From Lytechinus pictus (Eukaryota), in the NCBI RefSeq assembly GCF_037042905.1, contig NC_087245.1, positions 19,346,001 to 19,410,000 of the forward strand: a stretch of DNA of 64,000 nucleotides. Direction: 5' to 3'. The position numbers were made by a program, and so were the translations under genes. This document shows positions 1 to 64,000 of the stretch, in pieces (positions within the stretch are counted from its first letter, which is position 1; every line of letters starts with the position of its first letter). The notes below the pieces were generated by a model. That model saw only the letters and a program-made list of their open reading frames with translations, was not told the origin of the DNA and did not search any database.

Positions 1-242
1 CGATAAATAAAGATGATCATTATTATTATTGCATTAGTGTAGCCCATGGGCTCCAGCATAAAATCCAGTTTGTTAAATGCCAACACTAATTCAGCCTGTA
101 AAATGGAATAGATAGTGTTATTTAGTTAGCAACTGTATGATTATTTCAATTCACAGAAAACGAAAATCCATGAGGCAGATAATAGCTTGATATGAAGACA
201 TATTGAATTGAACACTTGGAACTAATCTGTTAAGATATCATC

Positions 243-337
243 TTTATTATTGGTAATGTCTAAATCATTATATTACAATTTGCATAATTTCTATGCATGT
301 AATTTATATTGCATAAACCCTTTTATCACAGTTTATT
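243..337 (-). promoter_or_regulatory. Candidate polyadenylation signals (AATAAA at 332-337 and 243-248, minus strand)
   Basis: tttatt on + strand downstream of the candidate stop; chance hits are likely in AT-rich DNA. Confidence 0.25.
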
Positions 338-483
338 TAAAAACAAGAAGAAATAGATTACTGAAATTGTACCGTCACGACTGGACAAATTAGATCATTC
401 ACACACAAATAAAAATAAACAATACATGGCTAAAGCAATAAGGAAAAGTTGGAATCATACAACTAAGAAGCCAGGTGTTTTTT

Positions 484-754
484 TCAAATTGTCTTCATAT
501 CAATAAACATTAAACGAAGCTGAACGTTGGATAAATATGGTGAAGTATGCAGCGATAAGAACACAGAATAGAAAGAAATGTGTCTATGCCTCAGTTTCTT
601 TGATGAGAGTAAGTTAGAGTTGGCCCAAACTGTCCCACATCCGGGCTCTCTTATCAGCTTCTCTGTCTTGAGCGTGTAGAATCCTGAGAGAGGATATTTA
701 TCCTCTCCCAGATCTGGAAGCTCAAAGTCATGAACATGTCCTTTCTCTTTCGTG
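484..754 (-). CDS. Candidate terminal coding exon (divergent second half of last Ig plus tail, stop TGA at 484-486)
   Basis: Acceptor tttcacag at 755-762; phase 2 matches donor at 1264; open frame STKEKGHVHDFELPDLGEDKYPLSGFYTLKTEK...MKTI*; SGFYTL resembles the Ig tyrosine corner; AATAAA downstream. Confidence 0.4.
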
Positions 755-1264
755 CTGTGAAAAGCGAATGTTTACATTATGGATGGATGAACTCTTTATA
801 AGTGAATCAAATCAAAATTATTCTGAATGAAACACTTAGTCTTTATTCTTCTCTAATCTGTACAGCCCTCTATCATACTGCATACAAACTCATTTTAATG
901 AAAAAAGTATCAAAAGAGTTGTTACAGTATGAAAAGACTTTATTTGACTATTGTTAATCACTCATTTAATCTATGGCAAGGTCTATAGAAATAAGAGATG
1001 ATAAGAATTTAATAGTCTTCATTTAATATACTCATGATATTTTTGTAAATATTTCCTGAAATGCTGTACAAATCACTGTACTATTTAGAATCAATATCTT
1101 CCTCTCATGGTTTGCAGGAGACGTTTTTTATCATAAACACTTTTATTCAATAAAAAAAAAAAAAATTCAATGATATGAACAAATATAAAGCTACCACAGA
1201 GAAATAAGTAATACAATATGTAATCATACTGAAGATCCTTCGGAGGGAAGACTTTTTCTATTAC

Positions 1265-1424
1265 CTGTAGCGTCCACGTGTGTCAAGAACTTCGCCATCT
1301 TGTCTGCGCCATGTGAATGTTGGTTTGGGTGTTCCATAGGTCAGTGTGACCGGAATGTGGATTTCCTGTCCAGCTCTGACTGATAGATCTTGGAGATGAC
1401 GGTCAATGCTAAGTTGAGGTGGTC
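1265..1424 (-). CDS. Exon: N-terminal half of Ig domain
   Basis: PPQLSIDRHLQDLSVRAGQEIHIPVTLTYGTPKPTFTW; phase 1-2. Confidence 0.85.
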
Positions 1425-46400: not shown

Positions 46401-49400
46401 CAAATGGAGCCTTGGCTATAAATTTGATGGAAGGATTACTAGGTTCTCCTGGGCCAACCTTGTTCTCAGCAATGACCCTAAACTCGTAGTCATTCTTCTC
46501 AACAAGGTCTGATACTGTCATTGTAGTTTCCTTGACCAGAGTTCTGTTGACCCTGATCCAGCTCCTCCCCTTTTCTCGTTTCTCCACTGTATATCCAACG
46601 ATGGTGCTTCCGCCATCTGAGGTAGGTGGTGTCCAGTTCAGTGTAACAGAATTCTTGTCAATGTCACTGACCTCAGGCATACCAGGTGCTCCTGGAGGCT
46701 TAACAGCTACCAATGACACTTCACTTGGTTTGCCTTTCCCTGCTTTATTGACAGCAATGACGCGGAATTCAGCGTTCTCTCCTTCTTTCAGACCCTTGAC
46801 ATTGAAAGATGTTCCATCGATGGAGTCTGTGACAGGGATCCAGCGACCAGACTTGTCCTTCTTCTCCAAGATGTAGCCTGTGATGTCAGCACCACCATCA
46901 GATCTTGGCGGGTCCCAGGAGAGCTCAACTTCTGTTGGGGAAATACGCTTCACTTCGGGAGCACTAGGTGCTTGAGGGATGTCTACATTAGAATATATAG
47001 ACAATGAGAAAAGGTTTGTAAGAACATGGAATACTAATTTTTGGTAGACATCAAATATCTTTGTTTGCGATTAGACACCAACTTTCCATTTGAATCATGG
47101 GTGATCTGTTGTTAAGTTTCAGCATTGAATATACATGTATCAGCAATATTTTACATTTGATTCTGTTGTATATTAACTGTTATTTCTTTCTAGTTCCGGT
47201 ACTGTCAATCAATTTAAATACAGATAACTCACGTCCATTGAACAAAACTCACCGAATCCATATTTAGCAACGACCTCAGTCTCCTTGCTAGGTTCACTTT
47301 GGCCTTCTTTGTTTTCTGCGATGATCCTAAAGGTATACTCAGTCTTGTCTTTCAAACCAGTCACCTTGAATGTGAGCTCAGTGAACAAGTCTTTCTTAAG
47401 GATGGTGAACCGTGTGCTAAATTTATCCTTCCATTCGATGATATAATTAGTTATGGGGCTTCCACCATCATCTTTTGGTGGGGTCCAGGTAAGAGTTAGG
47501 CTGGTTGGAGTGATTTCCGAGCCTTTGGGGGCTCCGGGTGCAGTAGGCACATCTGGTGTAAGAGAGAGAGACCAAAGAATAAGATATTAAAACTAAATGA
47601 TTACTCTATAGGGATCAAACATCATTTTGTTCTTAGATCATGATATAAATTGGTCAAAGTTCTAAATGGAAGTAAAGAAGAAAGAATTTTTTAGATTTAC
47701 ACTACATGGTTGGTCTAAATGAATTTTCCTTTAAAATAAGTAAATAAAACTCTTACCAAATGGAGACTTTGCAATGAATTTTGCTGATGGTTCACTAGGC
47801 TGTCCCTGTCCTACCCTGTTCTCTGCAATCACTCTGAACTCATAGTCGGTCTTTTCTGTAAGATCGGTGACCTTCATAGTGAGGGAATCTACAGGTTTCC
47901 TGTTGACACGTATCCAACGGTCTCTGCCTTTCTCTCTCTTCTCCACAATGTAGCCAGTAATACTGCTGCCACCATCTGAGGAAGGTGCCTTCCATGTCAC
48001 AGTTGCAGAAGTCTTGTTGATATCGCTGACTTCGGGTTTCCCAGGAGCACTAGGTGGCTTGGCAGTCAGGATGGTCACTTGACTTGGTTTGCTCTGACCT
48101 GCCTTGTTGACAGCACTGATTCTGAACTCGACGTCCTCATCATCTGGAAGACCTTTAACAGTAAAAGTGGTACCATCAATGGAGTCAGATGACACAGGTG
48201 TCCAGCGGCCAGACTTATCTTTCTTTTCAATGATGTAACCAGTAATATCAGATCCACCATCTGAGAAAGGTGGGGTCCAATCAAGTTGGATAGATGTTGG
48301 TGAAAGACGCCTAACTTCGGGAGCACTTGGTGCTTGTGGTATCTCTGCAGATTTTAGAATACAGAATATGGGTAGAATTCATTAGAATGTTGCATTTCAT
48401 TGGAATGGTTTTAGGTTAACTATTTAGCAAGTTAAACTGGTAATTTGGTAATTGAGACAATGCCATAATAAGTTTTACTTTTATGCTTTGTTAATTTAAT
48501 TATGAAAAAGAAAGCTCATAATCATACATTATGAATACTACCATTGTAGCTCACCTGCCTGCACATGTTTATTGACATTTTCTGATATTCGATAGAACAG
48601 TAAGGAGAATAACACTTACCAAAGCCGTATTTGGCTACAACTTTTGTCTCCCTGCTTGGTTCACCGGGTCCAGCTTTGTTCTGAGCAATCACCCTGAACA
48701 GGTACTCTCCATTCTCTTTCAGGTTCTTCAAAGTGAAGGTGAGATCAGTGATTGTGTCCCGAGTTACCGGACTGAACTTGGTGCTGTACTTGTCCTTGGA
48801 TTCGAGGATGTATTCAGTGATTGGGCTGCCACCATCAGAATCAGGAGCGGTCCAGGTGAGAGTCACAGAGTTTGGACTGATATTAGAGGCTTTTGGTAGA
48901 CCAGGAGCAGTTGGTACATCTGTTTTCAAACAATAACATTGACAGTTGAATGCACTAGCAAAAATATGCTTTTATATTAAGTTATCATTGTCATAGAAAT
49001 TAATCTTTCCAATACACCATTATAAATTTTAATCCATTTATTAACATGATGGCAATTAAAGGAATATGAAGAATTAAGCACAGGAGATCATATCTTGAAT
49101 ATTTTTTTAAATGATACTTTGTGAAATGAAAGAAAATAAATGTTTGTTTGAATATTTATTTGAATTAATGAATACTATCGTCAGCAAATAAATCAATTAT
49201 GCAAACAAGAACATTTTAAATGCAATATTCTACTCACCAAACGGTGCCTTGGCTAAAAAGCTTGCAGATGCATCACTTGCTTCTCCGGGTCCTGCCCTGT
49301 TTTCTGCAATAACTCTGAACTCATAATTGTTCCTTTCCACAAGGTCAGGTACCTTCATGGTGATCTCGGTAACAGGTTTTCTGTTGACTCGGACCCAGTG

Positions 49401-52400
49401 GTCACGTCCCCTTTCTCTCTTTTCAACGATGTAGCCTGTCACCGGACTGCCACCATCACTTTCAGGTGCAGTCCATGTGACAACAGCAGATGTCTTCTGG
49501 ATATCAGAGACTTCAGGCTTGCCAGGGGCACTTGGTGGCTTGGCTGCAACAACCGTCACTTCACTGGGTTTACCAGTACCTGCCTTGTTGATGGCACTGA
49601 CCCTGAACTCCACGTCCTCTCCTTCTTTCAATCCCTTGACAGTGAAGGTTGTGTCTTCAACGGAGTCTGATGTCACAGGTGACCATCGACCGGTCTTGTC
49701 CTTCTTTTCAATGATGTAGCCAGTGACCTCTGAGCCACCATCGGATGTGGGTGCTGTCCAATTGAGTTGGACGGACGTTGGTGAGAGACGTTTTACTTCT
49801 GGGGGAGCTGGCGGTTTTGGAGCCTCTGTAAATCAATTGATTAGCATATATATGTACTTTAAAGTTTAAAAGCAATTATGTTAAATGATATTATTTGTAG
49901 CTTATCTTTAATGTATTAATTATTTCAAAATAGTAAATTTTTCATTATATAATAGTAAATTTATCCAAGTGAGCAATCCACCATGTACATTTTTTCTTTG
50001 GTAAAGAAAATGATAGCTGTATACTTTTGTATATTACAAATAAATTTGTCACACTACACTTGATCCCAGACCTAGGAATATAACGTACAGGGGTATGAAT
50101 AGTAAATGCTAGCTACAATATAATTGATAGGAAGATACAAATATATATTATAAAAATTGTACACTCACCATATATTGAAATGTGAACTGATCAAATCTCA
50201 AATTAATATAAGAATTCAATTAGAATTATCTTTTAACTATGAAATTGCACACAAGATAAATGTATATAAACAATGCTCAATAAGCGAAGATGCAATACAA
50301 AGAGAAATAGTAAACATGTTCATGGAACAGGCAGTAGGTAGAACAAGGAATCAGTGACAATCTCAAAACATTTTATCAAATAATCTAAAAGGGGGATGAA
50401 AGGAGGATGTTTTACCAAATGGGAATTTTGCAGTGACATTGACCGATTGACTCGGTTTGCCCGGCCCAGCGAGGTTATGGGCCACCACGCGGAATTGGTA
50501 GTTCTCATTCTCTTTCAACTTCTTCACTAGTAGTTCCGTCTCATTGATCGGTTCTCTGTTGACTGGGGTCCACCTTGTGCTGTATGGCTCCTTCATTTCG
50601 ACGGTGTAACCCGTAATTGGACTACCGCCGTCATACGAGGGCTCTTTCCATGTGATGATGGCAGAGGTAGGGGTAGTATCCTTAGCAACAACATATCCGG
50701 GTGCTTCTGGTGTTTCTGTTTTCCATTTAGTAACCATGGAGATGATTTGAGGATGGGGTATGGTGGGAGAGAGAATAATGAACAAAGCATGCAAAGAGCA
50801 TTCACTTTCACTTCTTGAATCATGCATCCTTGAATAAGAGATGGGAATGCATGGTAAGGTCATTTTATCAAATTCAAATAGGATAGTGTCAATGATATGT
50901 GCAGACAGAATTATTCATATTTACAAAGATGATTATTAGGTATTGAATTCGAAATGACAAAGTTTATTTACTTTGTGGATGCAAATGTACGAGTTAAATA
51001 GATAGTTTCCCATATTTTGTTTCTTAATATTCAGAATTGTCTTTTGATAAGACCAATTCACAGAGCTCATGATATAGTGAAAATATCATTTTATCTCGTT
51101 TGGGTATTTTGATGATGTGTCACAATTCATAGCAATGACACTACCCTAAATCAATCTTGTAAGAATACTAAATAGGCTAAAAGCCAATCAACATACTTAA
51201 AACATGAAGTAAATTCAAGTCATTCAATAACATACAAAACTTACAATTTATTTTACCAGGCCACACATGGATGTCTAAATATTTAAGAGCAAGACAGTTT
51301 TAATTTTCTTACATTAACTATTAAATATCTACTTTGAAAAACTTAATGTGTGGCCCAGTGAGATATGTGCTTTTAAAAAAGAAAAAAAAATGCTTAATCA
51401 GCTTTTAAAAAAGATAAAAATTCTTAATCATAAATCATCTAATGCTTCAAATAAATGTATCTGGATGCTTTAAAAAGGTACTATGGTATTGATGTTTTGG
51501 GTTTCAAAACAAGACATCAAAAATATTCATGCACCTTCATGAATGAAAACATGCTTAAAAACCGAGAGGGGATCATAGCTCATCTATTCAACATCCGACA
51601 TCCATTAAATGAGACCCTGATTGGGTGTAATACTTTTTCTACATACTATAACTATGATAAATGAAAATTATGAGAAAAAATGATGTAGGATATCTTAGAT
51701 TAAATTATTAATAAATCCAGCATTCTGGCACAAAGCTTGAATAAATACATTCAAAGGTCTGATAAATATTGTACTACTGAATAGTAGAGTAGGATCAAGC
51801 AATGAACTTTAAATGGGTAAAGATAAACTTTGGGTAAAATAACATAAAAAGGAGCATTCTTTTACTCACCAAACTGGTGTTTGGCGATGAACTTGCATTC
51901 ATGACTTGGTTTACTTGGGCCAGCCTTGTTCTCTGCGATGACACGGTACACATACTCATTGTTCTCCTGGAGGTTGGTCACACTGAAGGAGGTATCTGGG
52001 AGAAGGTCCTTGTTGACTTTAGTCCAGCGAGAGCTGAACTTGTCCTTGGTCTCCAGGGTGTAGCCTAGTATAGGCCTGCCTCCATCAGAGTCAGGTGGTA
52101 ACCAAGACAGTGTGGCAGATGTTGGAGTGATGTCAGATGCAGCAAGGGAGTAAGGAGGCTCTGGTTCATCTGCATAAAGGGCAGGAAGAATACGTTTAGG
52201 GGTTGATATGGTAATAATAAAAACAATGCCTATGGAAGGTGAAATAAAACATTTAATGTACGTATGAATGATTGCAACAATTCTTTTTGCATTTCGCAAT
52301 GGGTGATTTCACAGGAACAATGTAATTTTGTCACCAACACCTATTAGTTTTTATCTTATATTCCCTTTTCTAGTGTCTAGCTATTTTGGTCTAATCATTT

Positions 52401-55400
52401 CCTTATTCCATGCATGATATTGTGGTACTTAGAAATGATAAAAGAAAAATTACACAGTGAGTCATTCTTCAAGAACAAGCATGTCTTATGATATCAAACA
52501 TACACTATACTGATACGGACTATCAAGGCATGATTCCATTCTGTATATCTTCTTTTTTTCATCCGCAGATTCGGGTATTGAAGAATTGCTTTGATTGCTT
52601 TCATAATAAATATGAAATGAGGTGATCATTTTCCAATGTAGGAAAGCCTATTTGTATTTTGAAACGAAATATCAGGTGTTACTTCTTATAAATCTTCATT
52701 CTAAAATAGTTTTAGAGTCTGAAACAAAATCTGTCTGAAATAATTTTGAACCTACCAAATGGAGCCTTGGCCGTAAATCTTGATGATGGGCTGCTGGGTT
52801 CGCCAGCACCAACTTTGTTTTCAGCAATGACTCTGAACTCATACTGGTTCTTTTCTGTAAGATCATTGACTTTCAAGGTAGTATCCTTCACCGGGCTCTT
52901 GTTGACCCTCACCCAGCGATCTCTTCCTTTCTCCCTTCGCTCTATGGTGTAACCCGTGATTGTGCTACCTCCATCAGATGAGGGCGCTGTCCACGTCACC
53001 GAGGCTGATGTCTTGTCAATGTCACTGATCTCGGGTGCTTCAGGAGCACTTGGTGGCTTGGCAGCTAATGTTGCTACCTGACTTGGTTTTCCAGTGCCGG
53101 CTTTGTTGACAGCGCTGACCCTGAATTCCACGTTCTCACCATCTGGCAGTCCTTTCACCGTGAAAGACGTCTCGGTCTCAGATTCGGTCACAGGAGACCA
53201 ACGTGGAGACATCTTTTCCTTCTTTTCCAAGACATAGCCGGTGATCTCAGATCCTCCATCTGATTTGGGAGGGGACCACTTGATGGTAGCAGAAATGGGA
53301 GACTCTCTGGTGACATTGTGTATAGTTGGTGCTTGAGGTGGTTCTATATAGAAATAGAGAGATACTTGTACAGAATTATATTATATAAATTATGCTTGAA
53401 ATTATAAATTAACGTCATTTGTATAGACAGTTAACAATTGTACTAGAAGAGCAGAAACACACACTTTCAGCAACAGAACGTCTAATAAAGCTTCAAACTT
53501 ACCAAATGGATATTTGGCTGTAACCTGAAGTTCTGGGCTTGGTTTACTTTGTCCAGCCTTATTCTCTGCAATCACTCGGAACTGATACTCCTCTTTCTCT
53601 TTAAGATTTGGGATGACTACAGTGGTTTCTGAAATCAATTCTCTGATGGCCTTTGTCCAACGGGAGCTGAACTTATCCTTCATCTCCACAGTGTAGCCTG
53701 TGATAGGGCTTCCACCATCAGAAGCCGGAGGTGTCCAGGTTAAGGTTACAGAGGTTGGAGATAAGTCAGAGGGTGTTGGTTTACCTGGTGCATCAGGAAC
53801 ATCTGTTAAAATAAATTTTGAAATAATAATAATAACAATGCTAATATTTATTACAACTGTGTAAATAGTTTGGGCCATTCTGAGAAAACGCAGTTCACAT
53901 GTAAAAACAATTATGATAAGAATAAAAATATAATTTATGATACTGCTAAAAACAATAAAAGTATATATAGGTTTTATTAGCCGCAGACCACACCATGGTT
54001 AGCATTGTTTGTCATAGAGGTAAATAGGTCACCAGAACACATTATTCACACAAAGAAAAAGTCCCTTCTTCACGTAATAGGCAATATGAAATATTTTTAC
54101 TTGATTAAATTTATATAATACTTCATGATTCTTTACCATATGGAGGCTTGGCCACAAATGGTTTACAGGCATCACTGGGACTCCCAGGCCCAGCTGGATT
54201 GACAGCAATCACTCTGAACTGATATTCATTCCCTTCCTTTAGGTCTTTGAGAGTGATTGTGACAGTATCTCCTTGCGTCTGGCCAGCCTTGGTCCAACGG
54301 GAAGAGAAGCGGTCCTTCCGCTCAATGATGTACTCTGTGATTTCCGCACCACCATTGCTGGAAGGAGGTGCCCATTCTAGATGAACTGATGTCTCGGTAA
54401 TGTCAGATGGAACAGGTGTACTAGGTGCTCCAGGAACATCTGGATATTAAAAAAAAATGAAAAAGGTTTGTTAACAGACTTCCAATCCTAAATTTGATTG
54501 GGGAAGTGTTAGACCCACTGGAAAGTTCACAATAACCTTTTGCCACTGATATCATAGAATATAATTTTAATTTATTGTTAGCTATTGATCTTTGGTTAAA
54601 AAATACCTGAATATCAGAATATATTATTTAATATAAAAAGAGTGTTAAGAAGACAGATGTTTCTATATCTCACCAAATGGTAGTTTGGACTTGATTGTCT
54701 CAGAAGGCAGACTTGGTGGTCCTACACCAGCTATGTTCACAGCACTGACACGGAAATCATAGATGGCATCTTCTGTCAGTCCTGTAACAGTGAAGCTGGT
54801 CTCAGGAACAGGTTCCTTGTTGACATTAGCCCACTTATCGCGAGATTTATCCCTCTTTTCAATGATGTAGCCTGTAACCTCGGAACCACCGTCATCATCA
54901 GGAGGTAACCAAGTGAGATGGACAGAGGTTCGATCCACATTGGTTGGTGTAGGAGGAGGAGGAGGGCCAGGCTCATCTGAAACAAACAATCAATCATAAA
55001 AGATAATTAACAATCGACAATCAATTTAAGAAAAAAAGTTAAACATTTACCTCCATTGATTATCATTTGTTACAGGTGCTTAAGATAACATAAGTTTTGA
55101 GAATTATTTACAGAATAATGTGCAAGAATTCAAAAGCACAAATGAAAGACTCATAATATAAAGATTAAGATATATACATACATGTACATTAATAATAATT
55201 GCAGTTGATCTAGAAGAATTACAATAATACCATATCACTGAATACCACATCTATTGGTGAAAACATGAACAAAATGCATACCATAAGGTGGCTTAGCCTT
55301 CTTTGGTTGGGTAGCTGGACTTGATTCGCCAACACCTGCGGCGTTTTCAGCACTGACCCTAAACATGTAGTTTTTACCCTCTGTGAGGTCATTGAGAGTG

Positions 55401-58400
55401 AGTGTTAGTTCAGTGACAAGGTCTTCTTTGTGGGCCTTGGTCCAACGTTTACGATCGGCATCGCATTTCTCCACAATGTAGCCCAGGATTTCAGCACCGC
55501 CATCATCTGTAGGTGGTGTCCATGTTAGGGTCATGCGGGTCTTGTCAACATCACTGATGTCTGGAATGCCTGGTGGTCCTGGTACATCTACAAAGGATAT
55601 AATAAAATTGAAAATTAAGTACGATTAAATAGAAAATTGGAAGGACAAAGAGAAGGAATGATTAACAAATACTTTAATTGTGTTTTGACTATACACTGTG
55701 TATTTATTGTCTTTACAACTTTAAAGTCAACTGGCTTCACATGAAAAAGTCAAAGTTTATTTTCCTATTTTGCATTAAATATGCTGCTGTATGTATCACG
55801 TAAATATTGAATGATCACCTAATTTGAGAAAATACTAATGAAACATAATACTCAGTAGCTTTTGATTTATAATTTAATCTGGGGGAGAGAACAAACAATA
55901 CATATTAACAAGTACATATTGAAAAAGAATATGTACAAACACGCAAAATGTAACACAGGAAAACAATCCATCATTATACTTACCATAAGGTGGTTTGGCC
56001 CTGCGCTGGTCAGATGGCTCACTGGGTTTACCAATGCCAGCTTTGTTTTCAGCCGAAACCCTGAATTGGTAGTCGTTGCCTTCCTTGAGGTCAATGATCG
56101 TGTACACCACCTCCTCGATCGATGTCTCCTTGACCTTTGTCCATCTTGAAGACACGCGATCTCTCTTCTCCACCACATAGCCTGTGACTGGGGAACCACC
56201 ATCATTTTCAGGTGGTGTCCAGGTTATTGTCATTGATGTGCTGTCCACTTCCAGTATGTTTGGCTTTCCAGGAGGACCAGGAACGTCTAGAATGTTTTAG
56301 AGGAAATTATGAACCAAATAAGATATTAACTTATAGTGGTAAATAAAAGTAAGTAAGATTATAATTTGGAACTTAATTCATATTAGGAGAAGCAGCTTTA
56401 TTGACTTTATTGCTTTAAGTAAAATTGTTCCTAGATCAAGGCATAGGACTAAAATTCCTAGGATATTCACATAATCATTATAATCACATATATTTTTAAA
56501 TTTTGTTTATGTGAAAAGACTATGTAGTTACTTACCATATGGTGCTTTTGCAATTTTGGAATCTGATGGTTGGCTGAAGGGACCAGTGCCAGCAAGGTTA
56601 ACAGCTGCAACACGGAACTCATATTCCTTCTTCTCGATCAGACTCTTGATAGTAACTTTAGTCTCAGTAGTGGTTGTCTTCAAGGACTGTGTCCATTTGC
56701 CATTGTTTTCCATCTTCTGGATGATGTATCCCGTGATTGGGCTTCCACCATCTGAATCAGGCACAGTCCAGGTGAGTTCCATCTGTGTTTTATCTGCTGA
56801 TGTCACTTCTGGCTTTCCTGGAGCTGAAGGAGCATCTGATTGGATATTATAAAAACATAGTGATTAATAATGCTGATTATAATTTTCTTTTGAGCTTTTC
56901 AGGATTAGTGATGGAATAATTCAAGTAAAAAAAAATGCATGTAGCAACATAGATATAAACAATTGTTATTGGTATGTAAGTGTATTGATTATAACTGAGC
57001 TGAAAAAAAAACAGATTCTATTTTTTTTTACATTCAAATTGTAAAAGTAAGTCTAATATTTACCAAATGGCAACTTGGCTTTTTGTAGATTGGAGGGCTC
57101 ACTTGCAGGTCCAGGACCTGCTAAGTTCTCAGCAATGATTCTGAACTGATATTCAGAATCCTCAGTCAGGCCAGTTACTGTGAGTGTTGTCTCAGTAACT
57201 GTCTCCTTTGTGACACGGACCCATCGAGATGAAGTCTTCTCTTTGCGTTCTACAATGTATCCAGTAATTGGGCTACCACCATCTGATTCAGGAGGGGTCC
57301 AAGTGATTGTCATCTTGGTGATGTTGTACGCAGTGACCTGTGGTTTACCTGGGGCTCCAGGGGCATCTGAGAATAAGAAATGTGATTACAGGAAATATTC
57401 ATAAAAATCTAGACATAATGTGATGCAATGACAAATCTTTTGAAAATCTTACAGTCATTTTGCTAATGCTTGATTTCATTTTGGGGTTGCTTTTCCCCAA
57501 TAAACCACCTTAAAAAGGTATTTGAATTTACTTCTGTGCTTGATGCTCCAAAGAAATCTATTAAATTCTACTTCATGGTTACACTTACCGAATGGCAACT
57601 TGGCTTTCACAGTGTCTGATGGTGGACTTGGTTGACCAACTCCTGCTGCATTCTCAGCTGACACTCTGAACTGGTACTCGTTACCTTCATGCAGGTCAGA
57701 TATGGTCAGTGTCAGTTCAGTCACTAGATCTTTATTACACTTCACCCAGCGACCTCGGGCTGCCTCACATCTCTCAACGATGTAGCCCATGACAGGAGAA
57801 CCGCCATCATTTTCTGGAGGTGTCCAGGTAACTGTGATTGTTGTCTTGTTGATGTTTTCAGTAGTAGGTTTAGAAGGTGGGCCAGGTACATCTGTATGAA
57901 AAGAAAGTTAGAAGATGGGTTCATTAATTTTTTCCAAACAAATGAGCAAATACATTTAAGTCACCATATGAACTTTTTGTATAAGTATGAAATGCTTCAA
58001 TAACTGAATGTATAATTTTCAGGCTCATAGAATGAACAAGTGGAATGCCTCTGGCCGTCTCACCTGCATCACGCGATTCAATATAGCAGCAGTGCTGATT
58101 TTGAAAACTACTATAACTCGCACAAGATGTTCAGTGATACTTGGTTACTCTTATTTCCACGTTTTATGAACTAGACCAATACACTTATAGAGATATGATG
58201 GCAATTCAACAAATACCCCCAACGTGGCCAAAGTTCTTTGACCTTACATGACCTTTGACCTTGATCATGTGACCTGAAACTCGCACAGGATGTTCAGTGA
58301 TACTTGATTACTCTTATGTCCAAGTTTTATGAACTAGACCAACACACTTTCAAATTTATGGCTGTAATTCAACATATACCCCAATTTGGCCAAAGTTCAT

Positions 58401-61400
58401 TGACCCTAAATGACCTTTGACCTTGATCATGTGACCTGAAACTTGCACAGGATGTTCAGTAATACTTGATTACTATTATGTCCAAGTTTCATGAATCAGA
58501 TCCATAAACTTTCAAAGTTATGATGGTAATTCAACAGATACCCCCAATTCGGCCAAAGTTCATTGACCCTAAATGACCTTTGACCTTGGTCATGTGACGT
58601 TAAACTCATGCAGGATGTTCAGTGATACTTGATTAACCTTATGTATAAGTTTCATGAACTAGGTCCATATATTTTCTAAGTTATGATGACATTTCAAAAA
58701 CTTAACCTTAGGTTAAGATTTTGATGTTGATTCCCCCAACATGGTCTAAGTTCATTGACCCTAAATGACCTTTGACCTTGGTCATGTGACATGAAACTCA
58801 GGCAGGATGTTCAGTAATACTTGATTAACCTTATGGCCAAGTTTCATGAACTAGGTCCATACACTTTCTAAGTTATGCTGTCATTTCAAAAACTTAACCT
58901 CAGGTTAAGATTTGGTGTTGACGCCGCCGCCGCCGCCGCCGCCGCCGCCGTCGCCGCCGCCGTCGGAAAAGCGGCGCCTATAGTCTCACTCTGCTATGCA
59001 GGTGAGACAAAAACCTGTTCTCACCATATGGTGCTTTGGCCATTTTGTTGTCTGAGGGTTCACTGAATGGACCAGTTCCTGCCAGGTTGATGGCTGCTAC
59101 CCTGAATTGGTATTCTTTCTTCTCAATCAAGCTTGTGACAGTTGTTGTTGTCTCAGTAACAACCGTTTTTAGGGCCTTTGTCCATTTTCCAGTCTTCTCC
59201 TTCTTCTCGATGGTATAACCAGTGATAGGGCTGCCACCATCTGATTCTGGTAAAGTCCAGGTTAGTTCCATCTCCGTCTTGTCAAAAGAAGTGATGTCTG
59301 GTTTTCCAGGTGCAGAGGGAACATCTACAAGTGGATTGCAAATCATAACATGAAATAATCCATGAAATTTAGAATCATTAAAGTACTGGATGAGATCAGT
59401 GCTATTGGATTTTACAAAAAGCTGAAAACATTATCATGTTCAACAACTCATTTTAGGCTTTAATCATCATTAAGATAAAAGACAAGGTGATGAATTGCGA
59501 ATCATATAGAAACTATTCAATTCTACATTTAGTGATCTCCATTAATGTTGAAATACAATATGGGACTATCAATGGTAGATTGATATCACATTCCCTTTAC
59601 ACCTAAAATAAGAGGACTCACCAAATGGCAACTTGGCCTTCTGTAGATCAGATGGTTCACTAGCAGGTCCGGGACCTGCTAAGTTCTCAGCAATGATTCT
59701 GAACTGGTATTCAGAACCCTCAGTCAGACCAGTTACTGTGAGTGTTGTCTCAGTAACTGTTTCCTTTGTGACACGGACCCATCGAGATGAAGTCTTCTCT
59801 TTGCGTTCTACAGTGTATCCTGTAATTGGACTACCACCATCTGATTCAGGAGGAGTCCAAGTGATTGTCATCTTGGTGATGTTGTACTCAGTGACCTGTG
59901 GTTTACCTGGGGCTCCAGGGGCATCTGAGAATAAGAAATGTGATTACAGGAAATATTCATAAAAATCTAGACATAATGTGATGCAATGACAAATCTTTTG
60001 AATATCTTACAGTCATTTTGCTAATGCTTAATTTCATTTTGGGGCTGCTTTTCCCCAATAAACAACAACAAAAAAGGTATTTGAATTTACTTCTGTGCTT
60101 GATGCTCCAAACACATCTATGCAATTCTACTTCATGGTCACACTTACCGAATGGCAACTTGGCTTTCACAGTGTCTGATGGTGGACTTGGTTGACCAACT
60201 CCTGCTGCATTCTCAGCTGACACTCTGAACTGATATTCGTTACCTTCGTGCAGGTCAGATATGGTCAGTGTCAGTTCAGTCACTAGATCTTTATTACACT
60301 TCACCCAGCGACCTCGGGCTGCCTCACATCTCTCAACGATGTAGCCCTTGATGGGAGAGCCGCCATCGTTTTCTGGAGGTGTCCAGGTAACTGTAATTGT
60401 TGTCTTGTTGATGTTTTCAGTAGTAGGTTTAGAAGGTGGGCCAGGTACATCTGTATGAAAAAAAAGTTAGAAGATGGGTTCATTAATGTTTTCCAAACAA
60501 ATGTGCAAATACATTTAAGTCACCATATGAACTTTTTGTATAAGTATGAAATGCTTCAATAACTGAATGTATAATTTTCAGGCTCATAGAAGGAAAAACC
60601 TGTTCTCACCATATGGTGCTTTGGCCATTTTGTTGTCTGAGGGTTCACTGAATGGACCAGTTCCTGCCAGGTTGATGGCTGCTACCCTGAATTGGTATTC
60701 TTTCTTCTCAATCAAGCTTGTGACAGTTGTTGTTGTCTCAGTAACAACCGCTTTGATGGCCTTTGTCCATTTTCCAGTCTTCTCCTTCTTCTCGATGGTA
60801 TAACCAGTGATAGGGCTGCCACCATCTGATTCTGGTAAAGTCCAGGTTAGTTCCATCTCCGTCTTGTCAAAAGAAGTGATGTCTGGTTTTCCAGGTGCAG
60901 AGGGAACATCTACAAGTGGATTGCAAATCATAACATGAAATAATCCATGAAATTTAGAATCATTAAAGTACTGGATGAGATCAGTGCAATTGGATTTTTA
61001 CAAAAAGCTGAAAACATTATTATCATGTTCAACAACTCATTTTAGGTTTTAATCATCATTAAGATAAAAGACAAGGTGATGAATTGCGAATCATATAGAA
61101 ACTATTCAATTCTACATTTAGTGATCTCCATTAATGTTGAAATACAATATGGGACTATCAATGGTAGATTGATATCACATTCCCTTTACACCTAAAATAA
61201 GAGGACTCACCAAATGGCAACTTGGCCTTCTGTAGATCAGATGGTTCACTAGCAGGTCCGGGACCTGCTAAGTTCTCAGCAATGATTCTGAACTGGTATT
61301 CAGAACCCTCAGTCAGACCAGTTACTGTGAGTGTTGTCTCAGTAACTGTTTCCTTTGTGACACGGACCCATCGAGATGAAGTCTTCTCTTTGCGTTCTAC

Positions 61401-63680
61401 AGTGTATCCTGTAATTGGACTACCACCATCTGATTCAGGAGGAGTCCAAGTGATTGTCATCTTGGTGATGTTGTACTCAGTGACCTGTGGTTTATCTGGG
61501 GCTCCAGGGGCATCTGAGAATAAGAAATGTGATTACAGGAAATATTCATAAAAATCTAGACATAATGTGATGCAATGACAAATCTTTTGAATATCTTACA
61601 GTCATTTTGCTAATGCTTAATTTCATTTTGGGGCTGCTTTTCCCCAATAAACAACAACAAAAAAGGTATTTGAATTTACTTCTGTGCTTGATGCTCCAAA
61701 CACATCTATGCAATTCTACTTCATGGTCACACTTACCGAATGGCAACTTGGCCTTCACAGTGTCTGATGGTGGACTTGGTTGACCAACTCCTGCTGCATT
61801 CTCAGCTGACACTCTGAACTGATATTCGTTACCTTCGTGCAGGTCAGATATGGTCAGTGTCAGTTCAGTCACTAGATCTTTATTACACTTCACCCAGCGA
61901 CCTCGGGCTGCCTCACACTTCTCAACAATGTAGCCCATGACAGGAGAACCGCCATCGTTTTCTGGAGGTGTCCAGGTAACTGTAATTGTTGTCTTGTTGA
62001 TGTTTTCAGTAGTAGGTTTAGAAGGTGGGCCAGGTACATCTGTATAGAAAAAAGGAAAATTACATATTTTCTCAAATTTTATGAAATAAATATGGACATA
62101 TGTTCATTATTGTTTTTGTGTGAGCGTCAGTCAGAATATGGGAATATGACACCCAGGTCGACCAAGGGAAATATCGAAAAATAAATGAATTAAACCAAAA
62201 AATGTTGTATCCCATCAATGTGGATGCAAGAACCAAACTCACCATAAGGTGCCTTGGCCATTTTGTTGTCCGAGGGTTCACTGAAAGGACCAGTTCCAGC
62301 AAGATTAATGGCTGCAACCCTAAATTGGTATTCCTTCTTCTCACTCAAGTTTGTCACAGTAGTTGTTGTCTCAGTAACCACGGTTTTGATAGCCTTTGTC
62401 CACTTTCCAGTCTTCTCCTTCTTTTCGATGGTATAACCAGTGATTGGACTGCCACCATCAGATTCTGGTACAGTCCAGGTTAGTTCCATCTCTGTCTTAT
62501 CAACAGAAGTGATGTCTGGCTTTCCAGGTGCAGAGGGAACATCTGGAGATGAGGATGTTTAGAAGTTATAATCATTCAATAAATGGGAACCAATATTGAG
62601 AAAAAAAATACAAAAATTGGAACAAAAATATTAAGTACATTTGCCTTAAAGGCTTTCACAAAAAATATTGATTAGCATCAAGTTAATCAGAAGGTAAATG
62701 ATGCAATAAGGATATGCACTGATTGTTTTCTATCCTTTCTAGATTAAGAGCAATGTTAAAAAAGGAATGAGCGACGGTATAGCATGAAATCACATGATTT
62801 CCAAAATCTGCAACAGAACTAAGACTCACCAAATGGCAGCTTGGCCTTCTGCAGATCGGATGGCTCACTAGCAGGTCCGGGACCTGCTAAGTTCTCAGCA
62901 ATGATTCTGAACTGGTACTCGGAACCCTCAGTCAAACCAGTTACTGTGAGCGTCGTCTCAGTAACTGTCTCCTTTGTGACACGGACCCATCGAGATGAAG
63001 TCTTCTCTTTGCGTTCTACAATGTATCCAGTAATTGGGCTACCACCATCTGATTCAGGAGGAGTCCAAGTGATTGTCATCTTGGTGATGTTGTACTCAGT
63101 GACCTGTGGCTTACCTGGGGCTCCAGGGGCATCTATAAATGGACCAGAATAATGATCTTTACATAATTCTGTTTGTTGAAGCATAGTACAAAGCTTAGAT
63201 TAAAACACTTTGAATGAATGCATTCTAGTGATGCTTCTTGTGTGTCACAGTGGAGTGAAATTCTGTTTTCATGCTTGCAATTAAAAAACGATTATGATAT
63301 CCATACTCATTATTGATTTATTTATTTTACCAGGAACTTGAAGAATAATGATTTTGATTTACTGTTTTCATACTTACCAAATGGTAGCTTCGCTGTGAAG
63401 GTATCAGAAACAGGGCTTGGTTTTCCAACTCCTGCAGCATTCTCTGCAGACACCCTGAACTGATATTGTCCACCATCTGTCAGATCAGAGACAGTGAAGG
63501 TAAGTTCAGTGACTTTATCACTGTTACATTTGACCCAGCGACCCCTGGAGACATCACAACGCTCAATGATATACCCAGTGACGGGCGAGCCACCGTCATC
63601 CCCTGGAGGGGTCCAGGATACTGTGATGGTAGTTTTGTTGATGTTCTCACAGGATGGTTTTTCAGGAGCTCCTGGCACAT
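1265..63680 (-). CDS. Giant titin/twitchin-like Ig/Fn3 protein gene, multi-exon and partial (5' end beyond the window); about 77 Fn3 and 8 Ig domains in 79 exons
   Basis: Exons repeat the titin-type Fn3 motif P.AP..P......L.W.PP.SDGGS.I.GY.VE.....W....Y.FRV.A.N.AG.G.PS and I-set Ig motifs (G.P.P.V.W, D.G.Y); all are flanked by AG/GT with compatible phases. Confidence 0.95.
1805..1848. repeat. Imperfect (GT)n/(GA)n microsatellite in intron
   Basis: gtgtgtgtgtgtgagtgtatatgtgtgagagaggagagatagag. Confidence 0.6.
1869..2041 (-). CDS. Exon: C-terminal half of I-set Ig
   Basis: VHHGRELMTGRKY...ETGMYTIIAKNKHGSVRSSAELLIQ; AAG acceptor; phase 2-1. Confidence 0.9.
2500..2611 (-). CDS. Exon: N-terminal half of I-set Ig (not in ORF track)
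   Basis: GAAPSIQMEIQNTMVPEGQTGMFSCKISGSPKPKVSW; phase 1-2. Confidence 0.9.
3511..3810 (-). CDS. Exon: Fn3
   Basis: 300 nt, phase 1-1, Fn3 motif. Confidence 0.92.
4732..5037 (-). CDS. Exon: Fn3
   Basis: 306 nt, phase 1-1. Confidence 0.92.
5495..5797 (-). CDS. Exon: Fn3
   Basis: 303 nt, phase 1-1. Confidence 0.92.
6221..6505 (-). CDS. Exon: Ig
   Basis: PYTGCPTPKVEW...DTGKYSITMTNDAG. Confidence 0.92.
6766..7029 (-). CDS. Exon: Ig
   Basis: TLECRISNPKAEVKW...DTGKYTCECG. Confidence 0.9.
7370..7672 (-). CDS. Exon: Fn3
   Basis: 303 nt, phase 1-1. Confidence 0.92.
7996..8298 (-). CDS. Exon: Fn3
   Basis: 303 nt, phase 1-1. Confidence 0.92.
8624..8911 (-). CDS. Exon: Ig
   Basis: WLKDDKQV...DSGSYTIKISNKAG. 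Confidence 0.92.
9254..9562 (-). CDS. Exon: Fn3
   Basis: 309 nt, phase 1-1. Confidence 0.92.
9908..10020 (-). CDS. Exon: C-terminal part of Fn3
   Basis: VTKLIEDKEYQFRVRAENKLG; phase 2-1. Confidence 0.9.
10497..10572 (+). mobile_element. Short L2-type LINE/SINE 3' tail remnant
   Basis: Stem-loop gcgcata...acattat-tc-ataatgt...tatgcac followed by (TAT)n. Confidence 0.55.
10646..11120 (-). CDS. Exon: Ig plus N-terminal part of Fn3
   Basis: ORF 10642-11079; phase 1-2. Confidence 0.92.
11698..12000 (-). CDS. Exon: Fn3
   Basis: 303 nt, phase 1-1. Confidence 0.92.
12427..13011 (-). CDS. Exon: Ig plus Fn3
   Basis: 585 nt, phase 1-1. Confidence 0.92.
13374..13676 (-). CDS. Exon: Fn3
   Basis: 303 nt; donor gtgtgt. 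Confidence 0.88.
13818..14405 (-). CDS. Exon: Ig plus Fn3
   Basis: 588 nt, phase 1-1. Confidence 0.92.
14609..14902 (-). CDS. Exon: Fn3 (last of the Ig-free array)
   Basis: 294 nt, phase 1-1. Confidence 0.9.
15197..15499 (-). CDS. Exon: Fn3
   Basis: 303 nt. Confidence 0.9.
15791..16093 (-). CDS. Exon: Fn3
   Basis: 303 nt. Confidence 0.92.
16198..18418 (-). mobile_element. Non-autonomous Helentron-type element (HINE/DINE-1-like), copy 1, interrupted by a nested hAT element
   Basis: 13-bp subterminal inverted repeats gtctcacctgcat (16218-16230) and atgcaggtgagac (18400-18412); terminal hairpin; (GCC)n tract; internal ~163-bp tandem repeats; A-run flanks. Confidence 0.8.
16338..17578. mobile_element. 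Non-autonomous hAT (Buster/Charlie-like) DNA transposon nested in Helentron copy 1
   Basis: Perfect 8-bp TSD aacTAgac (16330-16337, 17579-17586); imperfect TIRs cagggattctcaa / cagcctttctcaa (10/13); absent from copy 2. Confidence 0.85.
18463..18759 (-). CDS. Exon: Fn3 (not in ORF track)
   Basis: 297 nt, DAPSAPLEPTITSITEDSATLTWAAPSRDGG. Confidence 0.9.
19079..19381 (-). CDS. Exon: Fn3
   Basis: 303 nt. Confidence 0.92.
19678..19980 (-). CDS. Exon: Fn3
   Basis: 303 nt. Confidence 0.92.
20266..20568 (-). CDS. Exon: Fn3
   Basis: 303 nt. Confidence 0.92.
20715..21017 (-). CDS. Exon: Fn3
   Basis: 303 nt. Confidence 0.92.
21446..21745 (-). CDS. Exon: Fn3
   Basis: 300 nt. Confidence 0.92.
22146..22448 (-). 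CDS. Exon: Fn3
   Basis: 303 nt. Confidence 0.92.
22961..23263 (-). CDS. Exon: Fn3
   Basis: 303 nt. Confidence 0.92.
23716..23830 (-). CDS. Exon: C-terminal part of split Fn3
   Basis: VTGLTEGTEYEFRVVAENDAG; phase 0-1. Confidence 0.9.
24201..24388 (-). CDS. Exon: N-terminal part of split Fn3
   Basis: DEPGAPGAPEAS...EDTKLK; phase 1-0. Confidence 0.9.
25122..25268. mobile_element. MITE (~147 bp)
   Basis: TIRs caggggccatggaa / caggggcctcggaa; flanking direct repeat tattc; G-run and C-run inside. Confidence 0.65.
26072..26089 (-). CDS. Candidate 18-nt microexon (adds about ICQQKE between two Fn3 domains)
   Basis: ttctactttag|TTTGCCAACAAAAAGAAG|gtaagc; phase 1-1, no stop. Confidence 0.4.
26463..26765 (-). 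CDS. Exon: Fn3
   Basis: 303 nt. Confidence 0.92.
27037..27336 (-). CDS. Exon: Fn3
   Basis: 300 nt. Confidence 0.92.
27701..28003 (-). CDS. Exon: Fn3 (coding frame not in ORF track)
   Basis: 303 nt, LPDAPAKPDITNIDSKQITLAWSPPWSDGGSPIIGY. Confidence 0.9.
28249..28551 (-). CDS. Exon: Fn3
   Basis: 303 nt. Confidence 0.92.
28674..30059. mobile_element. Non-autonomous hAT-like DNA transposon (~1.39 kb)
   Basis: TIRs caaccgcgtagccagg / caggcgcgtagccagg (14/16); 8-bp TSD tctgatac / tctcatac (7/8). Confidence 0.8.
30328..30442 (-). CDS. Exon: C-terminal part of split Fn3
   Basis: TTGLKENHNYEFRVIAVNKAG; phase 0-1. Confidence 0.9.
32161..32348 (-). CDS. Exon: N-terminal part of split Fn3
   Basis: VPDAPSQP...ELTYQ; phase 1-0. 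Confidence 0.9.
32643..32939 (-). CDS. Exon: Fn3
   Basis: 297 nt. Confidence 0.9.
33412..33714 (-). CDS. Exon: Fn3
   Basis: 303 nt. Confidence 0.92.
33924..34226 (-). CDS. Exon: Fn3
   Basis: 303 nt. Confidence 0.92.
34403..35265 (+). mobile_element. Probable solo LTR (BEL/Pao-like)
   Basis: TG...CA ends (tgtttt...cttca); flanks ggacat / agacat; TATATAA at 34838; internal 25-bp tandem duplication 34779-34828. Confidence 0.5.
35394..35690 (-). CDS. Exon: Fn3
   Basis: 297 nt. Confidence 0.92.
36016..36476 (-). CDS. Exon: 1.5 Fn3 (3' part of split double exon)
   Basis: FSPRWTPV...KPPEAP...KPPYG; phase 2-1. Confidence 0.9.
36762..36891 (-). CDS. Exon: N-terminal part of Fn3
   Basis: DVPSQPHSLKITDVEPTAVTLEWSEPDSDGGDNVSAYIIEKKDR; phase 1-2. 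Confidence 0.88.
37176..37472 (-). CDS. Exon: Fn3 (single type)
   Basis: 297 nt. Confidence 0.92.
37694..38284 (-). CDS. Exon: double Fn3
   Basis: 591 nt, AAG acceptor. Confidence 0.9.
38416..38530 (-). CDS. Exon: C-terminal part of split Fn3
   Basis: VTRLSEGKDYQFRIIAENKAG; phase 0-1. Confidence 0.9.
38854..39035 (-). CDS. Exon: N-terminal part of split Fn3
   Basis: DVPDRPDQP...DLSFK; phase 1-0. Confidence 0.9.
39298..39882 (-). CDS. Exon: double Fn3
   Basis: 585 nt. Confidence 0.92.
40381..40680 (-). CDS. Exon: Fn3 (single type)
   Basis: 300 nt. Confidence 0.92.
40878..41465 (-). CDS. Exon: double Fn3
   Basis: 588 nt. Confidence 0.92.
41725..42021 (-). CDS. Exon: Fn3 (single type)
   Basis: 297 nt. 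Confidence 0.92.
42312..42899 (-). CDS. Exon: double Fn3
   Basis: 588 nt. Confidence 0.92.
43372..43512. mobile_element. Degenerate MITE (~141 bp)
   Basis: TIRs ctggtgagggtttcataga / caggtgggtgtttcataaa (15/19); internal inverted aagagcga / tcgctctt. Confidence 0.55.
44088..44387 (-). CDS. Exon: Fn3 (extra single, possibly alternative)
   Basis: 300 nt; pyrimidine-poor acceptor catgaacaccatag. Confidence 0.85.
45213..45513 (+). mobile_element. 5'-truncated L2/CR1-group LINE fragment (ORF2 C-terminus, 3' UTR, (ATT)n tail)
   Basis: Translates LCIPLSKLSSAEKRFAVAAAKTWNAVPLPIRNASSILGLKSSLKTYLFPQ*, matching the F.V.A...WN.LP..IR...S...FK..LKT.LF ORF2 end. Confidence 0.8.
45702..46001 (-). CDS. 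Exon: Fn3 (single type)
   Basis: 300 nt; AAG acceptor. Confidence 0.88.
46401..46982 (-). CDS. Exon: double Fn3
   Basis: 582 nt. Confidence 0.92.
47253..47552 (-). CDS. Exon: Fn3 (single type)
   Basis: 300 nt. Confidence 0.92.
47757..48344 (-). CDS. Exon: double Fn3
   Basis: 588 nt. Confidence 0.92.
48620..48919 (-). CDS. Exon: Fn3 (single type)
   Basis: 300 nt. Confidence 0.92.
49238..49825 (-). CDS. Exon: double Fn3
   Basis: 588 nt. Confidence 0.92.
50416..50715 (-). CDS. Exon: Fn3 (extra single, possibly alternative)
   Basis: 300 nt; purine-rich acceptor aatggaaaacag. Confidence 0.83.
51870..52169 (-). CDS. Exon: Fn3 (single type)
   Basis: 300 nt. Confidence 0.9.
52756..53343 (-). 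CDS. Exon: double Fn3
   Basis: 588 nt. Confidence 0.92.
53503..53802 (-). CDS. Exon: Fn3 (single type)
   Basis: 300 nt. Confidence 0.92.
54137..54439 (-). CDS. Exon: Fn3 (not in ORF track)
   Basis: 303 nt, DVPGAPSTPVPSDITETSVHLEWAPPSSNGGAEITEY. Confidence 0.9.
54674..54976 (-). CDS. Exon: Fn3
   Basis: 303 nt. Confidence 0.92.
55282..55587 (-). CDS. Exon: Fn3 (C-like)
   Basis: 306 nt. Confidence 0.92.
55984..56286 (-). CDS. Exon: Fn3 (B-like)
   Basis: 303 nt. Confidence 0.92.
56536..56835 (-). CDS. Exon: Fn3 type A
   Basis: 300 nt. Confidence 0.92.
57064..57366 (-). CDS. Exon: Fn3 type B
   Basis: 303 nt. Confidence 0.92.
57589..57891 (-). CDS. Exon: Fn3 type C
   Basis: 303 nt. Confidence 0.92.
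58037..59010 (-). mobile_element. Non-autonomous Helentron-type element, copy 2 (intact, ~974 bp)
   Basis: subTIRs 58057-58069 and 58996-59008; hairpin 58983-59008; (GCC)n about 58923-58962; empty site at 60581-60610 shows insertion into an A-run with no clear TSD. Confidence 0.85.
59025..59324 (-). CDS. Exon: Fn3 type A
   Basis: 300 nt. Confidence 0.92.
59622..59924 (-). CDS. Exon: Fn3 type B
   Basis: 303 nt. Confidence 0.92.
60148..60450 (-). CDS. Exon: Fn3 type C
   Basis: 303 nt. Confidence 0.92.
60610..60909 (-). CDS. Exon: Fn3 type A
   Basis: 300 nt. Confidence 0.92.
61211..61513 (-). CDS. Exon: Fn3 type B
   Basis: 303 nt. Confidence 0.92.
61737..62039 (-). CDS. Exon: Fn3 type C
   Basis: 303 nt. 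Confidence 0.92.
62243..62542 (-). CDS. Exon: Fn3 type A
   Basis: 300 nt. Confidence 0.92.
62830..63132 (-). CDS. Exon: Fn3 type B
   Basis: 303 nt. Confidence 0.92.
63378..63680 (-). CDS. Exon: Fn3 type C (diverged)
   Basis: 303 nt. Confidence 0.92.
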
Positions 63681-64000
63681 CTACAGGATTAAGACACAGA
63701 GGATGCAAAGGAGGTAATGACCAACAATAGGTATATCAGAACTGTATGGTTCTGTAATTCAACCATTCATATGTTGTGATCTTACATTGATTGTCAAACC
63801 TCACTTAAAATATATAAATAATTATACCCAAAATATTTATGATTCAAAATTATATCAACATTATAGGTGAGCTTGTATATTCATATTTGCAAGACTATGT
63901 ATTTGTTCAAATGCTTTAGTGATTCATCAAGTCACTATCAGAGGAATACATTTCTAGTAAACTCTACAAGAACACTTATTTTCATGAAGAATAATCAGCT

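What the first reader, a model, noticed from the sequence alone, without database searches (positions are those of the whole stretch)
57064..62045. Exon array caught in the act of expanding: very recent three-exon tandem duplication
Seen: exon types C-B-A repeat four times (56536-63680). The central ~2.5 copies are nearly identical even across introns (period 1585-1589 bp), while the outer copies have unrelated introns. All copies keep open frames and splice sites. Inference: unequal crossing-over adds three Fn3 domains per event, so protein length may be polymorphic among individuals.
Basis: partly seen in the sequence, partly recalled or inferred. Interest (0 to 1): 0.7.

Follow-up and report, generated by a model that had tools for sequence, protein, structure and literature searches.

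The report
Ancient three-exon repeat, one extra copy
A sea urchin gene for a giant titin-like protein has an old block of three exons whose copies keep overwriting each other; this genome carries four copies where relatives seem to have three, so the protein may vary in length, or the extra copy may be an assembly error.

Summary
The repeat is real, but it is not one clean recent duplication. Twelve phase-1 exons (A-B-C x4, each one Fn3 domain) of a sea urchin titin/twitchin-like gene lie on the minus strand at 56536-63680 and splice in frame. Only one unit pair is 98.7% identical. The next match is 95.5%, and a ~975-bp HINE-like element makes that period 2558 bp, not 1585. The array is ancient: the Diadema setosum ortholog has three A-B-C units, homogenised among themselves, and inner domains group by species, not position. 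Two DNA runs of a related species show the inner unit at single-copy depth with other segments homogenised. One RNA run of a near-identical organism is ambiguous (about 1.4x). Best reading: long-running concerted evolution by patchy conversion, plus one added unit from unequal exchange in a 61-bp identical stretch (60396-60456). That sequence is also exactly what a haplotype mis-join would give, and no reads of the source individual were available. Polymorphism is plausible but not shown. Known kind (human TTN and NEB triplicate regions, Drosophila dumpy); new instance.

The parts
63378..63680 (-). Exon A4, Fn3; first domain of the array, not homogenised (75% aa to inner A, 83% to the first A of Diadema)
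62830..63132 (-). Exon B4, Fn3; dS 0.20-0.25 to the other B exons although the flanking introns do not align or barely align
62243..62542 (-). Exon C3, Fn3; 90% nt, dS 0.5 to C1/C2
61737..62039 (-). Exon A3, Fn3; right edge of the homogenised block
61211..61513 (-). Exon B3, Fn3; 1 difference from B2
60610..60909 (-). Exon C2, Fn3; 3 differences from C1, within 7 bp
60451..60609 (-). C-to-A intron, empty site for the element
60396..60456 (.). 61-bp stretch identical in A1, A2 and A3: inferred crossover (or mis-join) interval
60148..60450 (-). Exon A2, Fn3; mosaic with a private 4-base patch at 60348-60359
59622..59924 (-). Exon B2, Fn3
59025..59324 (-). Exon C1, Fn3; its three diagnostic letters are those seen in RNA run X1
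58034..59009 (.). About 975-bp non-coding HINE-like element in the C1-to-A1 intron: 13-bp subterminal inverted repeat (58057, 58996), 163-bp and 192-bp tandem units, (CGC)n; second copy at 16196-18417
57589..57891 (-). Exon A1, Fn3
57064..57366 (-). Exon B1, Fn3; left edge of the homogenised block
56536..56835 (-). Exon C0, Fn3; last domain of the array, not homogenised (dS 1.6-1.9 to other C)
1261..63680 (-). Host gene as far as seen: titin/twitchin-like, 82 Fn3 hits (whole or split domains) plus Ig domains in the 3' part; its 5' part lies beyond the window

Best explanation
An old intragenic array of three A-B-C exon units in a sea urchin titin/twitchin-like gene evolves in concert. Misaligned units exchange sequence: short conversion tracts overwrite exons, and sometimes an intron, so inner copies stay alike within each lineage while the edge domains escape (shown by sequence comparison; the mechanism is inferred). 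In the window's lineage a B-intron-A segment was homogenised to about 95%, giving a long target for misalignment. One unequal crossover between A1 and A3, probably between two different alleles and within 60396-60456, then added a fourth unit, 302 residues in frame (inferred). The extra unit is most likely a real allele that is not fixed. It would lengthen a long Fn3 chain slightly and is probably near-neutral (inferred, by analogy with human TTN).
For: Within the window: B4 vs B1 dS 0.25 while their neighbours give dS 2.6 (A4/A1) and 1.7 (C3/C0), and both flanking introns are unrelated, z 1.0 and -0.1. Diadema setosum XP_072180965.1 has A-B-C x3 then Z; its inner copies are 95-100% alike but only 75-88% like the window's. 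Tree: A4 pairs with the first Diadema A (94/85); inner domains group by species; AU tests reject B by position (p 9e-5 and 2e-9) and reject all window A as one clade (p 0.034). Two DNA runs of organism B: inner-unit introns at single-copy contig depth (inner/outer 0.95 and 1.05), A exon about 1.8x in X2; a second A-to-B intron unlike the window's; no cover on the window's C3-to-A3 intron, and in X3 a second contig like the inner C-to-A intron. The window has 0 N in 64 kb. Spliced run X1 shows an inner C exon joined to an A exon.
Against: No read from the source individual: the best run holds 0.34 of the words. The two newest copies differ by 6 substitutions in 677 aligned intron bases and 12 in 906 exon bases, within allelic range, and one has the element while the other has not, a setting in which haplotypes can be assembled side by side. 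X1 carries C1-type letters only and its A pieces run at 1.5-2.3x baseline, closer to three units than four; its inner C is 1.38x, about 2 SD from both one and two copies. The tool warns that depth is no copy number, and contigs drop variants. Last-C orthology is unresolved (p 0.126). Organism B's unit count rests on depth, not on a spanning contig.
Confidence: 0.6

Rival explanations
1. The old array and its concerted evolution are real, but the fourth unit is a false duplication: two haplotypes of the inner unit, one with the element and one without, were joined in tandem by the assembler within the identical stretch of exon A.
For: Such a join gives the same sequence as a crossover between alleles. 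The copies differ about 1%, like X1 against the window at single-copy exons (4 of 288 letters in C3, 1 of 304 in A4). X1 contigs match, by count of differences, A2-type and possibly A1-type exons along with C1-type letters, which could be one three-unit haplotype. Organism B and Diadema show three units. False duplications of 0.3-2.3% are reported for most human test assemblies (PMC9668749, passages).
Against: No gap or N in 64 kb, which suggests long reads; such reads would span 1.6 kb (inference). Between 59011 and 62045, 12 of 14 substitutions are in exons and 7 fall in 31 bp (0 of 20000 random placements); that looks like conversion between copies, although conversion can also separate alleles. 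X1's inner C depth is above single copy.
Confidence: 0.3
2. One reading: a young array growing by repeated whole-unit duplication, with the central 2.5 copies made by very recent events and copy number segregating widely.
For: 2.5 units share intron sequence at 95-99%; frames and splice sites are intact.
Against: Whole-unit duplication would copy all three introns, but the B1-to-C0 and C3-to-A3 introns do not match the inner ones. Three units exist in Diadema and apparently in organism B, so net growth is at most one unit. Identity changes by tract, not by unit.
Confidence: 0.07
3. Units arose independently in each sea urchin lineage from a single A-B-C, and the likeness of exons reflects strong purifying selection, not exchange.
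For: C0 groups with the window's other C domains (85/90); dN is far below dS in the older comparisons.
Against: Selection on protein does not hold synonymous sites at dS 0.2 beside saturated neighbours. One clade for all window A domains is rejected, though narrowly (p 0.034). Introns are homogenised too, in different places in organism B and the window.
Confidence: 0.03

Closest known systems
Human TTN segmental duplication (exons 172-180, 181-189, 190-198) and NEB triplicate region
   Same: Multi-exon block repeated in tandem inside a giant titin-family or sarcomeric gene; gains and losses occur in healthy people (11 losses and 9 gains among 55 samples; PMC9142044, part 1 of 5 and passages).
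   Different: There the block encodes PEVK or nebulin repeats and is several times longer; here 1.6 kb and three Fn3 domains. Copy-number variation is measured there and only suspected here. Here the array is traceable to a distant sea urchin.
Drosophila dumpy PIGSFEAST repeats
   Same: [quoted passage not shown]
   Different: About 40 copies within one large exon; here four units with introns, and patchy homogenisation.
Diadema setosum twitchin-like XP_072180965.1 with XP_072180962.1 and XP_072180963.1; Saccoglossus titin-like XP_006823012.1
   Same: Diadema models are the orthologous gene in pieces (most domains 69-89% identical, same order); Saccoglossus has a long Fn3-only run followed by spaced Fn3 pairs.
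   Different: Diadema has three units, homogenised independently; no A-B-C array was recognisable in the two Saccoglossus models (best matches 63% or less).
HINE / DINE-1-like non-autonomous Helentrons (for the intronic element)
   Same: 13-bp subterminal inverted repeats, microsatellite, internal tandem repeats, T-rich target; reported from sea urchin (PMC4067079, passages).
   Different: 3' hairpin and autonomous partner not tested.

Membership tests
Titin/twitchin giant Ig-Fn3 proteins | Long chains of I-set Ig and Fn3 domains, nearest to titin | tested here: met
   Pfam fn3 or I-set in 6 of 7 peptides; top PDB matches are titin; 82 Fn3 hits
Titin/twitchin giant Ig-Fn3 proteins | C-terminal protein kinase domain | tested here: inconclusive
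   None noticed by eye in the ORF lists; not scanned systematically; the gene's end may lie outside the window
Titin/twitchin giant Ig-Fn3 proteins | Ig-Fn3-Fn3(-Fn3) super-repeat around the region in question | tested here: not met
   The array lies in a run of Fn3 exons with no Ig seen (about 14.6-63.7 kb); Ig-Fn3-Fn3 appears only below 14.4 kb
Titin/twitchin giant Ig-Fn3 proteins | Location in muscle filaments | not testable with these tools
   Only splicing was seen
Intragenic multi-exon segmental duplication with copy-number variation (TTN/NEB type) | Tandem in-frame exon block with near-identical introns | tested here: met
Intragenic multi-exon segmental duplication with copy-number variation (TTN/NEB type) | Copy number differs among individuals | tested here: inconclusive
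   X1 depth 1.38x for inner C, between one and two copies
Repeat array under concerted evolution | Paralogs within a species closer than positional orthologs between species | tested here: met
   9 species-diagnostic and 0 position-diagnostic columns in B; AU p 9e-5 and 2e-9; two species only
Repeat array under concerted evolution | Edge copies escape homogenisation | tested here: met
   A4 and C0 here, first A and last C in Diadema
False duplication from haplotypes | Copies differ at allelic level | tested here: met
   18 substitutions in 1583 aligned bases, 3 short gaps, one element
False duplication from haplotypes | Assembly gap at the join | tested here: not met
   0 N in the window
False duplication from haplotypes | Half depth and no spanning reads in the source individual | not testable with these tools
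   No such run listed; no genome held
HINE (non-autonomous Helentron) | Subterminal inverted repeats, microsatellite or tandem repeats, T-rich target without clear duplication | tested here: met
   against PMC4067079
HINE (non-autonomous Helentron) | 3' hairpin and matching autonomous Helentron | not tested
   none

The most novel reading that the evidence does not exclude
The same three-exon module at the start of the Fn3 run has stayed a recombination hotspot since the split from Diadema (roughly 200 million years, recalled figure). It is homogenised independently in each lineage yet held at three to four units, and three- and four-unit alleles segregate today. That would be a natural length polymorphism of a titin-like chain in an echinoderm, with a selective cap on length that can be tested.
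Probability: 0.4. Interest if true: 0.55.

Novelty: new member of a known kind. Interest (0 to 1): 0.4.

Why it matters
If the fourth unit is real, it is a small, PCR-sized case in which conversion, unequal crossover and a marker transposon can all be read in one locus and compared across sea urchins, and it tests whether the length of an invertebrate titin-like protein is constrained. If it is not real, it flags a within-contig false duplication that adds three domains to a gene model. In both cases it warns that near-identity of tandem exons does not date a duplication.

Tried and rejected
No whole genome is held for this window, so flanking sequence and other element copies could not be searched. 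Run search: 24 runs listed, best share 0.34, no RNA holder on record; 4 of 24 were laid, on one unit plus the right flank only (60451-64000), so the left flank and the element's junctions were not examined. Raw RNA run X21 gave 13 reads, 12 only partly on the stretch: no use. The tables are cut (158 letter rows, 13 indel rows, 21 loose ends and 81 pieces not shown), so A1-type and A2-type contigs in X1 are inferred from counts of differences, not read. Rfam on the element: 0 matches. The profile search with exon B returned mostly chordate titins and other giant proteins among its best 150 and no full-length echinoid ortholog. Three look-ups in earlier findings returned nothing. Eight literature searches listed no paper on this gene or array, judged from titles and abstract starts; the library lacks most subscription papers. 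Passages of PMC12198301, PMC13672419 and PMC5888912 said nothing on it. No supplements were read. Rejected: dating the last duplication from 98.7% identity; calling the gene titin or twitchin proper. Structure prediction was not run, as the fold is not in doubt.

Full report
What is there. The window lies almost wholly inside one minus-strand gene made of Fn3 and Ig exons. A profile built from the array's exons finds 82 Fn3 hits, whole or split, and the window has no N. Pfam gives fn3 or I-set for 6 of 7 peptides tested, and the best solved-structure matches are titin. The closest named relatives are three adjacent Diadema setosum models labelled twitchin-like, most domains 69-89% identical and in the same order, so the organism is a sea urchin; the species was not determined. 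No kinase was noticed in the ORF lists, so I call the gene titin/twitchin-like only.

The observation. Twelve exons of 300 or 303 nt, all phase 1 at both ends with GT..AG introns, form four A-B-C units in transcript order from 63680 down to 56536. Spliced, they give 1207 codons without a stop. Self-BLAST shows 59009-60463 against 60594-62053 at 98.7% and 57062-58039 against 59620-60598 at 95.5%. The period is 1585-1589 bp between the central units but 2558-2559 bp from the left unit, because about 975 bp of foreign DNA sits in the C1-to-A1 intron; the paralogous intron is an empty site. The element has a 13-bp subterminal inverted repeat, 163-bp and 192-bp tandem units and a (CGC)n run, and a second copy at 16196-18417, 98-100% identical. 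These features fit HINE elements as described in PMC4067079 (passages).

Identity goes by tract, not by unit. dS between exon copies: C1/C2 0.015, B2/B3 0, A2/A3 0.07, A1/A2 0.10, B1/B2 0.20, B4/B2 0.20, B4/B1 0.25, C3/C1 0.50, C0 to other C 1.6-1.9, A4 to other A above 2. Introns: the three inner A-to-B introns align (z 32-39), as do the two inner B-to-C (z 47) and the two inner C-to-A introns (z 34); outer introns give z -0.5 to 2.8. So B4 and B1 are close at silent sites while both of their neighbouring exons and introns are saturated or unrelated. That needs exchange of exon sequence between old units. Between the two newest copies, 12 of 14 substitutions over 59011-62045 are exonic and 7 fall within 31 bp, reached by 0 of 20000 random placements. 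At the five sites where A1 alone differs from A3, A2 sides with A3; it then continues into the intron that follows A1. The switch lies in a 61-bp stretch identical in all three copies, 60396-60456. At four other sites A3 is the odd one, and A2 has four private letters, so A2 is not a clean single-crossover hybrid unless the two parents were different alleles.

The array is old. Diadema XP_072180965.1 reads Ig domains, two Fn3, A-B-C three times, then Z (89% to the window's Z). Its second and third A are 100% identical, its first two C 99%, its B 95-98%, while its first A (76%) and last C (86%) stand apart; all are 75-88% to the window's copies. In a tree of 24 domains A4 pairs with Diadema's first A (94/85) and the other domains group by species; B has 9 species-diagnostic and 0 position-diagnostic columns. 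AU tests reject pairing B by position (p 9e-5, 2e-9), narrowly reject one clade for the window's A domains (p 0.034), and do not decide the last C (p 0.126). Only two species are in this tree, and the Diadema model is a prediction from an assembly.

Reads. The run search listed 24 runs; none holds more than 0.34 of the words. Four were laid on 60451-64000. X2 and X3 (organism B, DNA by guess; about 30 other letters per 440-470 bases of mostly intron, so a related species) cover both inner-unit introns with contigs at depth 81.7 and 82.3 (X2) and 58.2 and 65.8 (X3), against 80.7-97.3 and 51.8-67.8 for contigs in the unique flank: ratios 0.95 and 1.05. The A exon is at 153 in X2, about two copies. 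That points to three units. In both runs a B exon joins an A-to-B intron unlike the window's (joint 63135 to 61712), nothing covers the window's C3-to-A3 intron, and the 3' part of C3 runs at raised depth; X3 has two contigs like the inner C-to-A intron. I read this as organism B having homogenised the C-intron segment where the window's lineage homogenised B-intron-A (inference; no contig spans the array). X1 (organism A, nearly identical in exons) is spliced: its joints skip three introns and join an inner C to an A exon. Its inner C has the C1 letters at all three diagnostic sites. Depths are 12.5 for inner C against 8.2-9.6 for single-copy pieces (1.38x), and 1.5-2.3x for A pieces. With an assumed read length of 150, the C value is about 2 SD from one copy and from two. 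The tool warns that depth is no copy number and that contigs drop variants, so this does not settle polymorphism. X21 gave 13 reads.

How it most likely works. Shown: an in-frame three-exon module, old units, within-species homogenisation, four units in this assembly. Inferred: misaligned pairing between units drives short conversions; one such tract made B-intron-A about 95% identical between neighbours; an unequal crossover in exon A then added a unit of 302 residues. If the two parents were different alleles, the copies would differ by about 1% from the start and could differ by the element, so the event may be younger than the divergence suggests. The same sequence would result from an assembler joining two haplotypes at that point. 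The copies differ by 18 substitutions in 1583 aligned bases, and X1 differs from the window by 4 of 288 and 1 of 304 letters at single-copy exons. The gap-free 64 kb argues for long reads, which should span 1.6 kb (inference). I put a real extra unit at about two in three.

Comparison with what is known. Human TTN has a nine-exon block repeated three times, with gains and losses in healthy people, and NEB has a similar triplicate region (PMC9142044, part 1 of 5 and passages). Drosophila dumpy repeats evolve in concert, probably by unequal crossing over (PMC2930355, passages). A survey of metazoan domain repeats calls concerted evolution real but rare (PMC5100051, passages). Among the homologs fetched here, a Lottia model has Fn3 domains 98-100% identical at a lag of three and a Ptychodera model has identical domains at a lag of two, so recent internal duplication recurs in such proteins, or in their assemblies. 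Within the window an older three-domain periodicity lies at 39-53 kb; mean identity peaks at lag 3 (0.54 against 0.44-0.50 at other lags), a figure that includes the young array. Eight searches listed no description of this locus.

Verdict. A real array and a well-supported case of concerted evolution of exons in a giant Fn3 protein; one extra unit that is probably real but unverified; polymorphism not shown. New member of a known kind; interest 0.4.

Noticed in passing
window 16196-18417: Second copy of the HINE-like element in another intron of the same gene, 98-100% identical to the one in the array, split by a 1237-bp insert at 16340-17576.
   Followed up: partly
window 39254-53380: Older three-domain super-repeat: one two-domain exon plus one or two single-domain exons, repeated about seven times, 60-74% aa identity between like domains, exon DNA 65-72% identical.
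   Followed up: partly
window about 14600-63700: Run of roughly 65 Fn3 domains with no Ig seen; titin-like proteins checked had runs of at most 3, Saccoglossus XP_006823012.1 has 18.
   Followed up: partly
window 36000-39000, 30329-32346, 23717-24386, 9924-10830: Several Fn3 domains are split over two exons, unlike the one-domain exons of the array.
   Followed up: no
proteins P0213 (Lottia) and P0049 (Ptychodera): Near-identical internal Fn3 repeats at lag 3 and lag 2 in other invertebrate giant proteins.
   Followed up: partly
window 61495: The single B2/B3 difference changes a conserved Gly to Asp in B3 (PGKP to PDKP); could be a new mutation or a consensus error.
   Followed up: no
window 226-830: Short plus-strand frames near the window's left end read like coding sequence (for example 507-617), perhaps exons of another gene; not identified.
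   Followed up: no
window 34779-34832: Perfect 25-bp tandem duplication (2.2 copies) in an intron.
   Followed up: no
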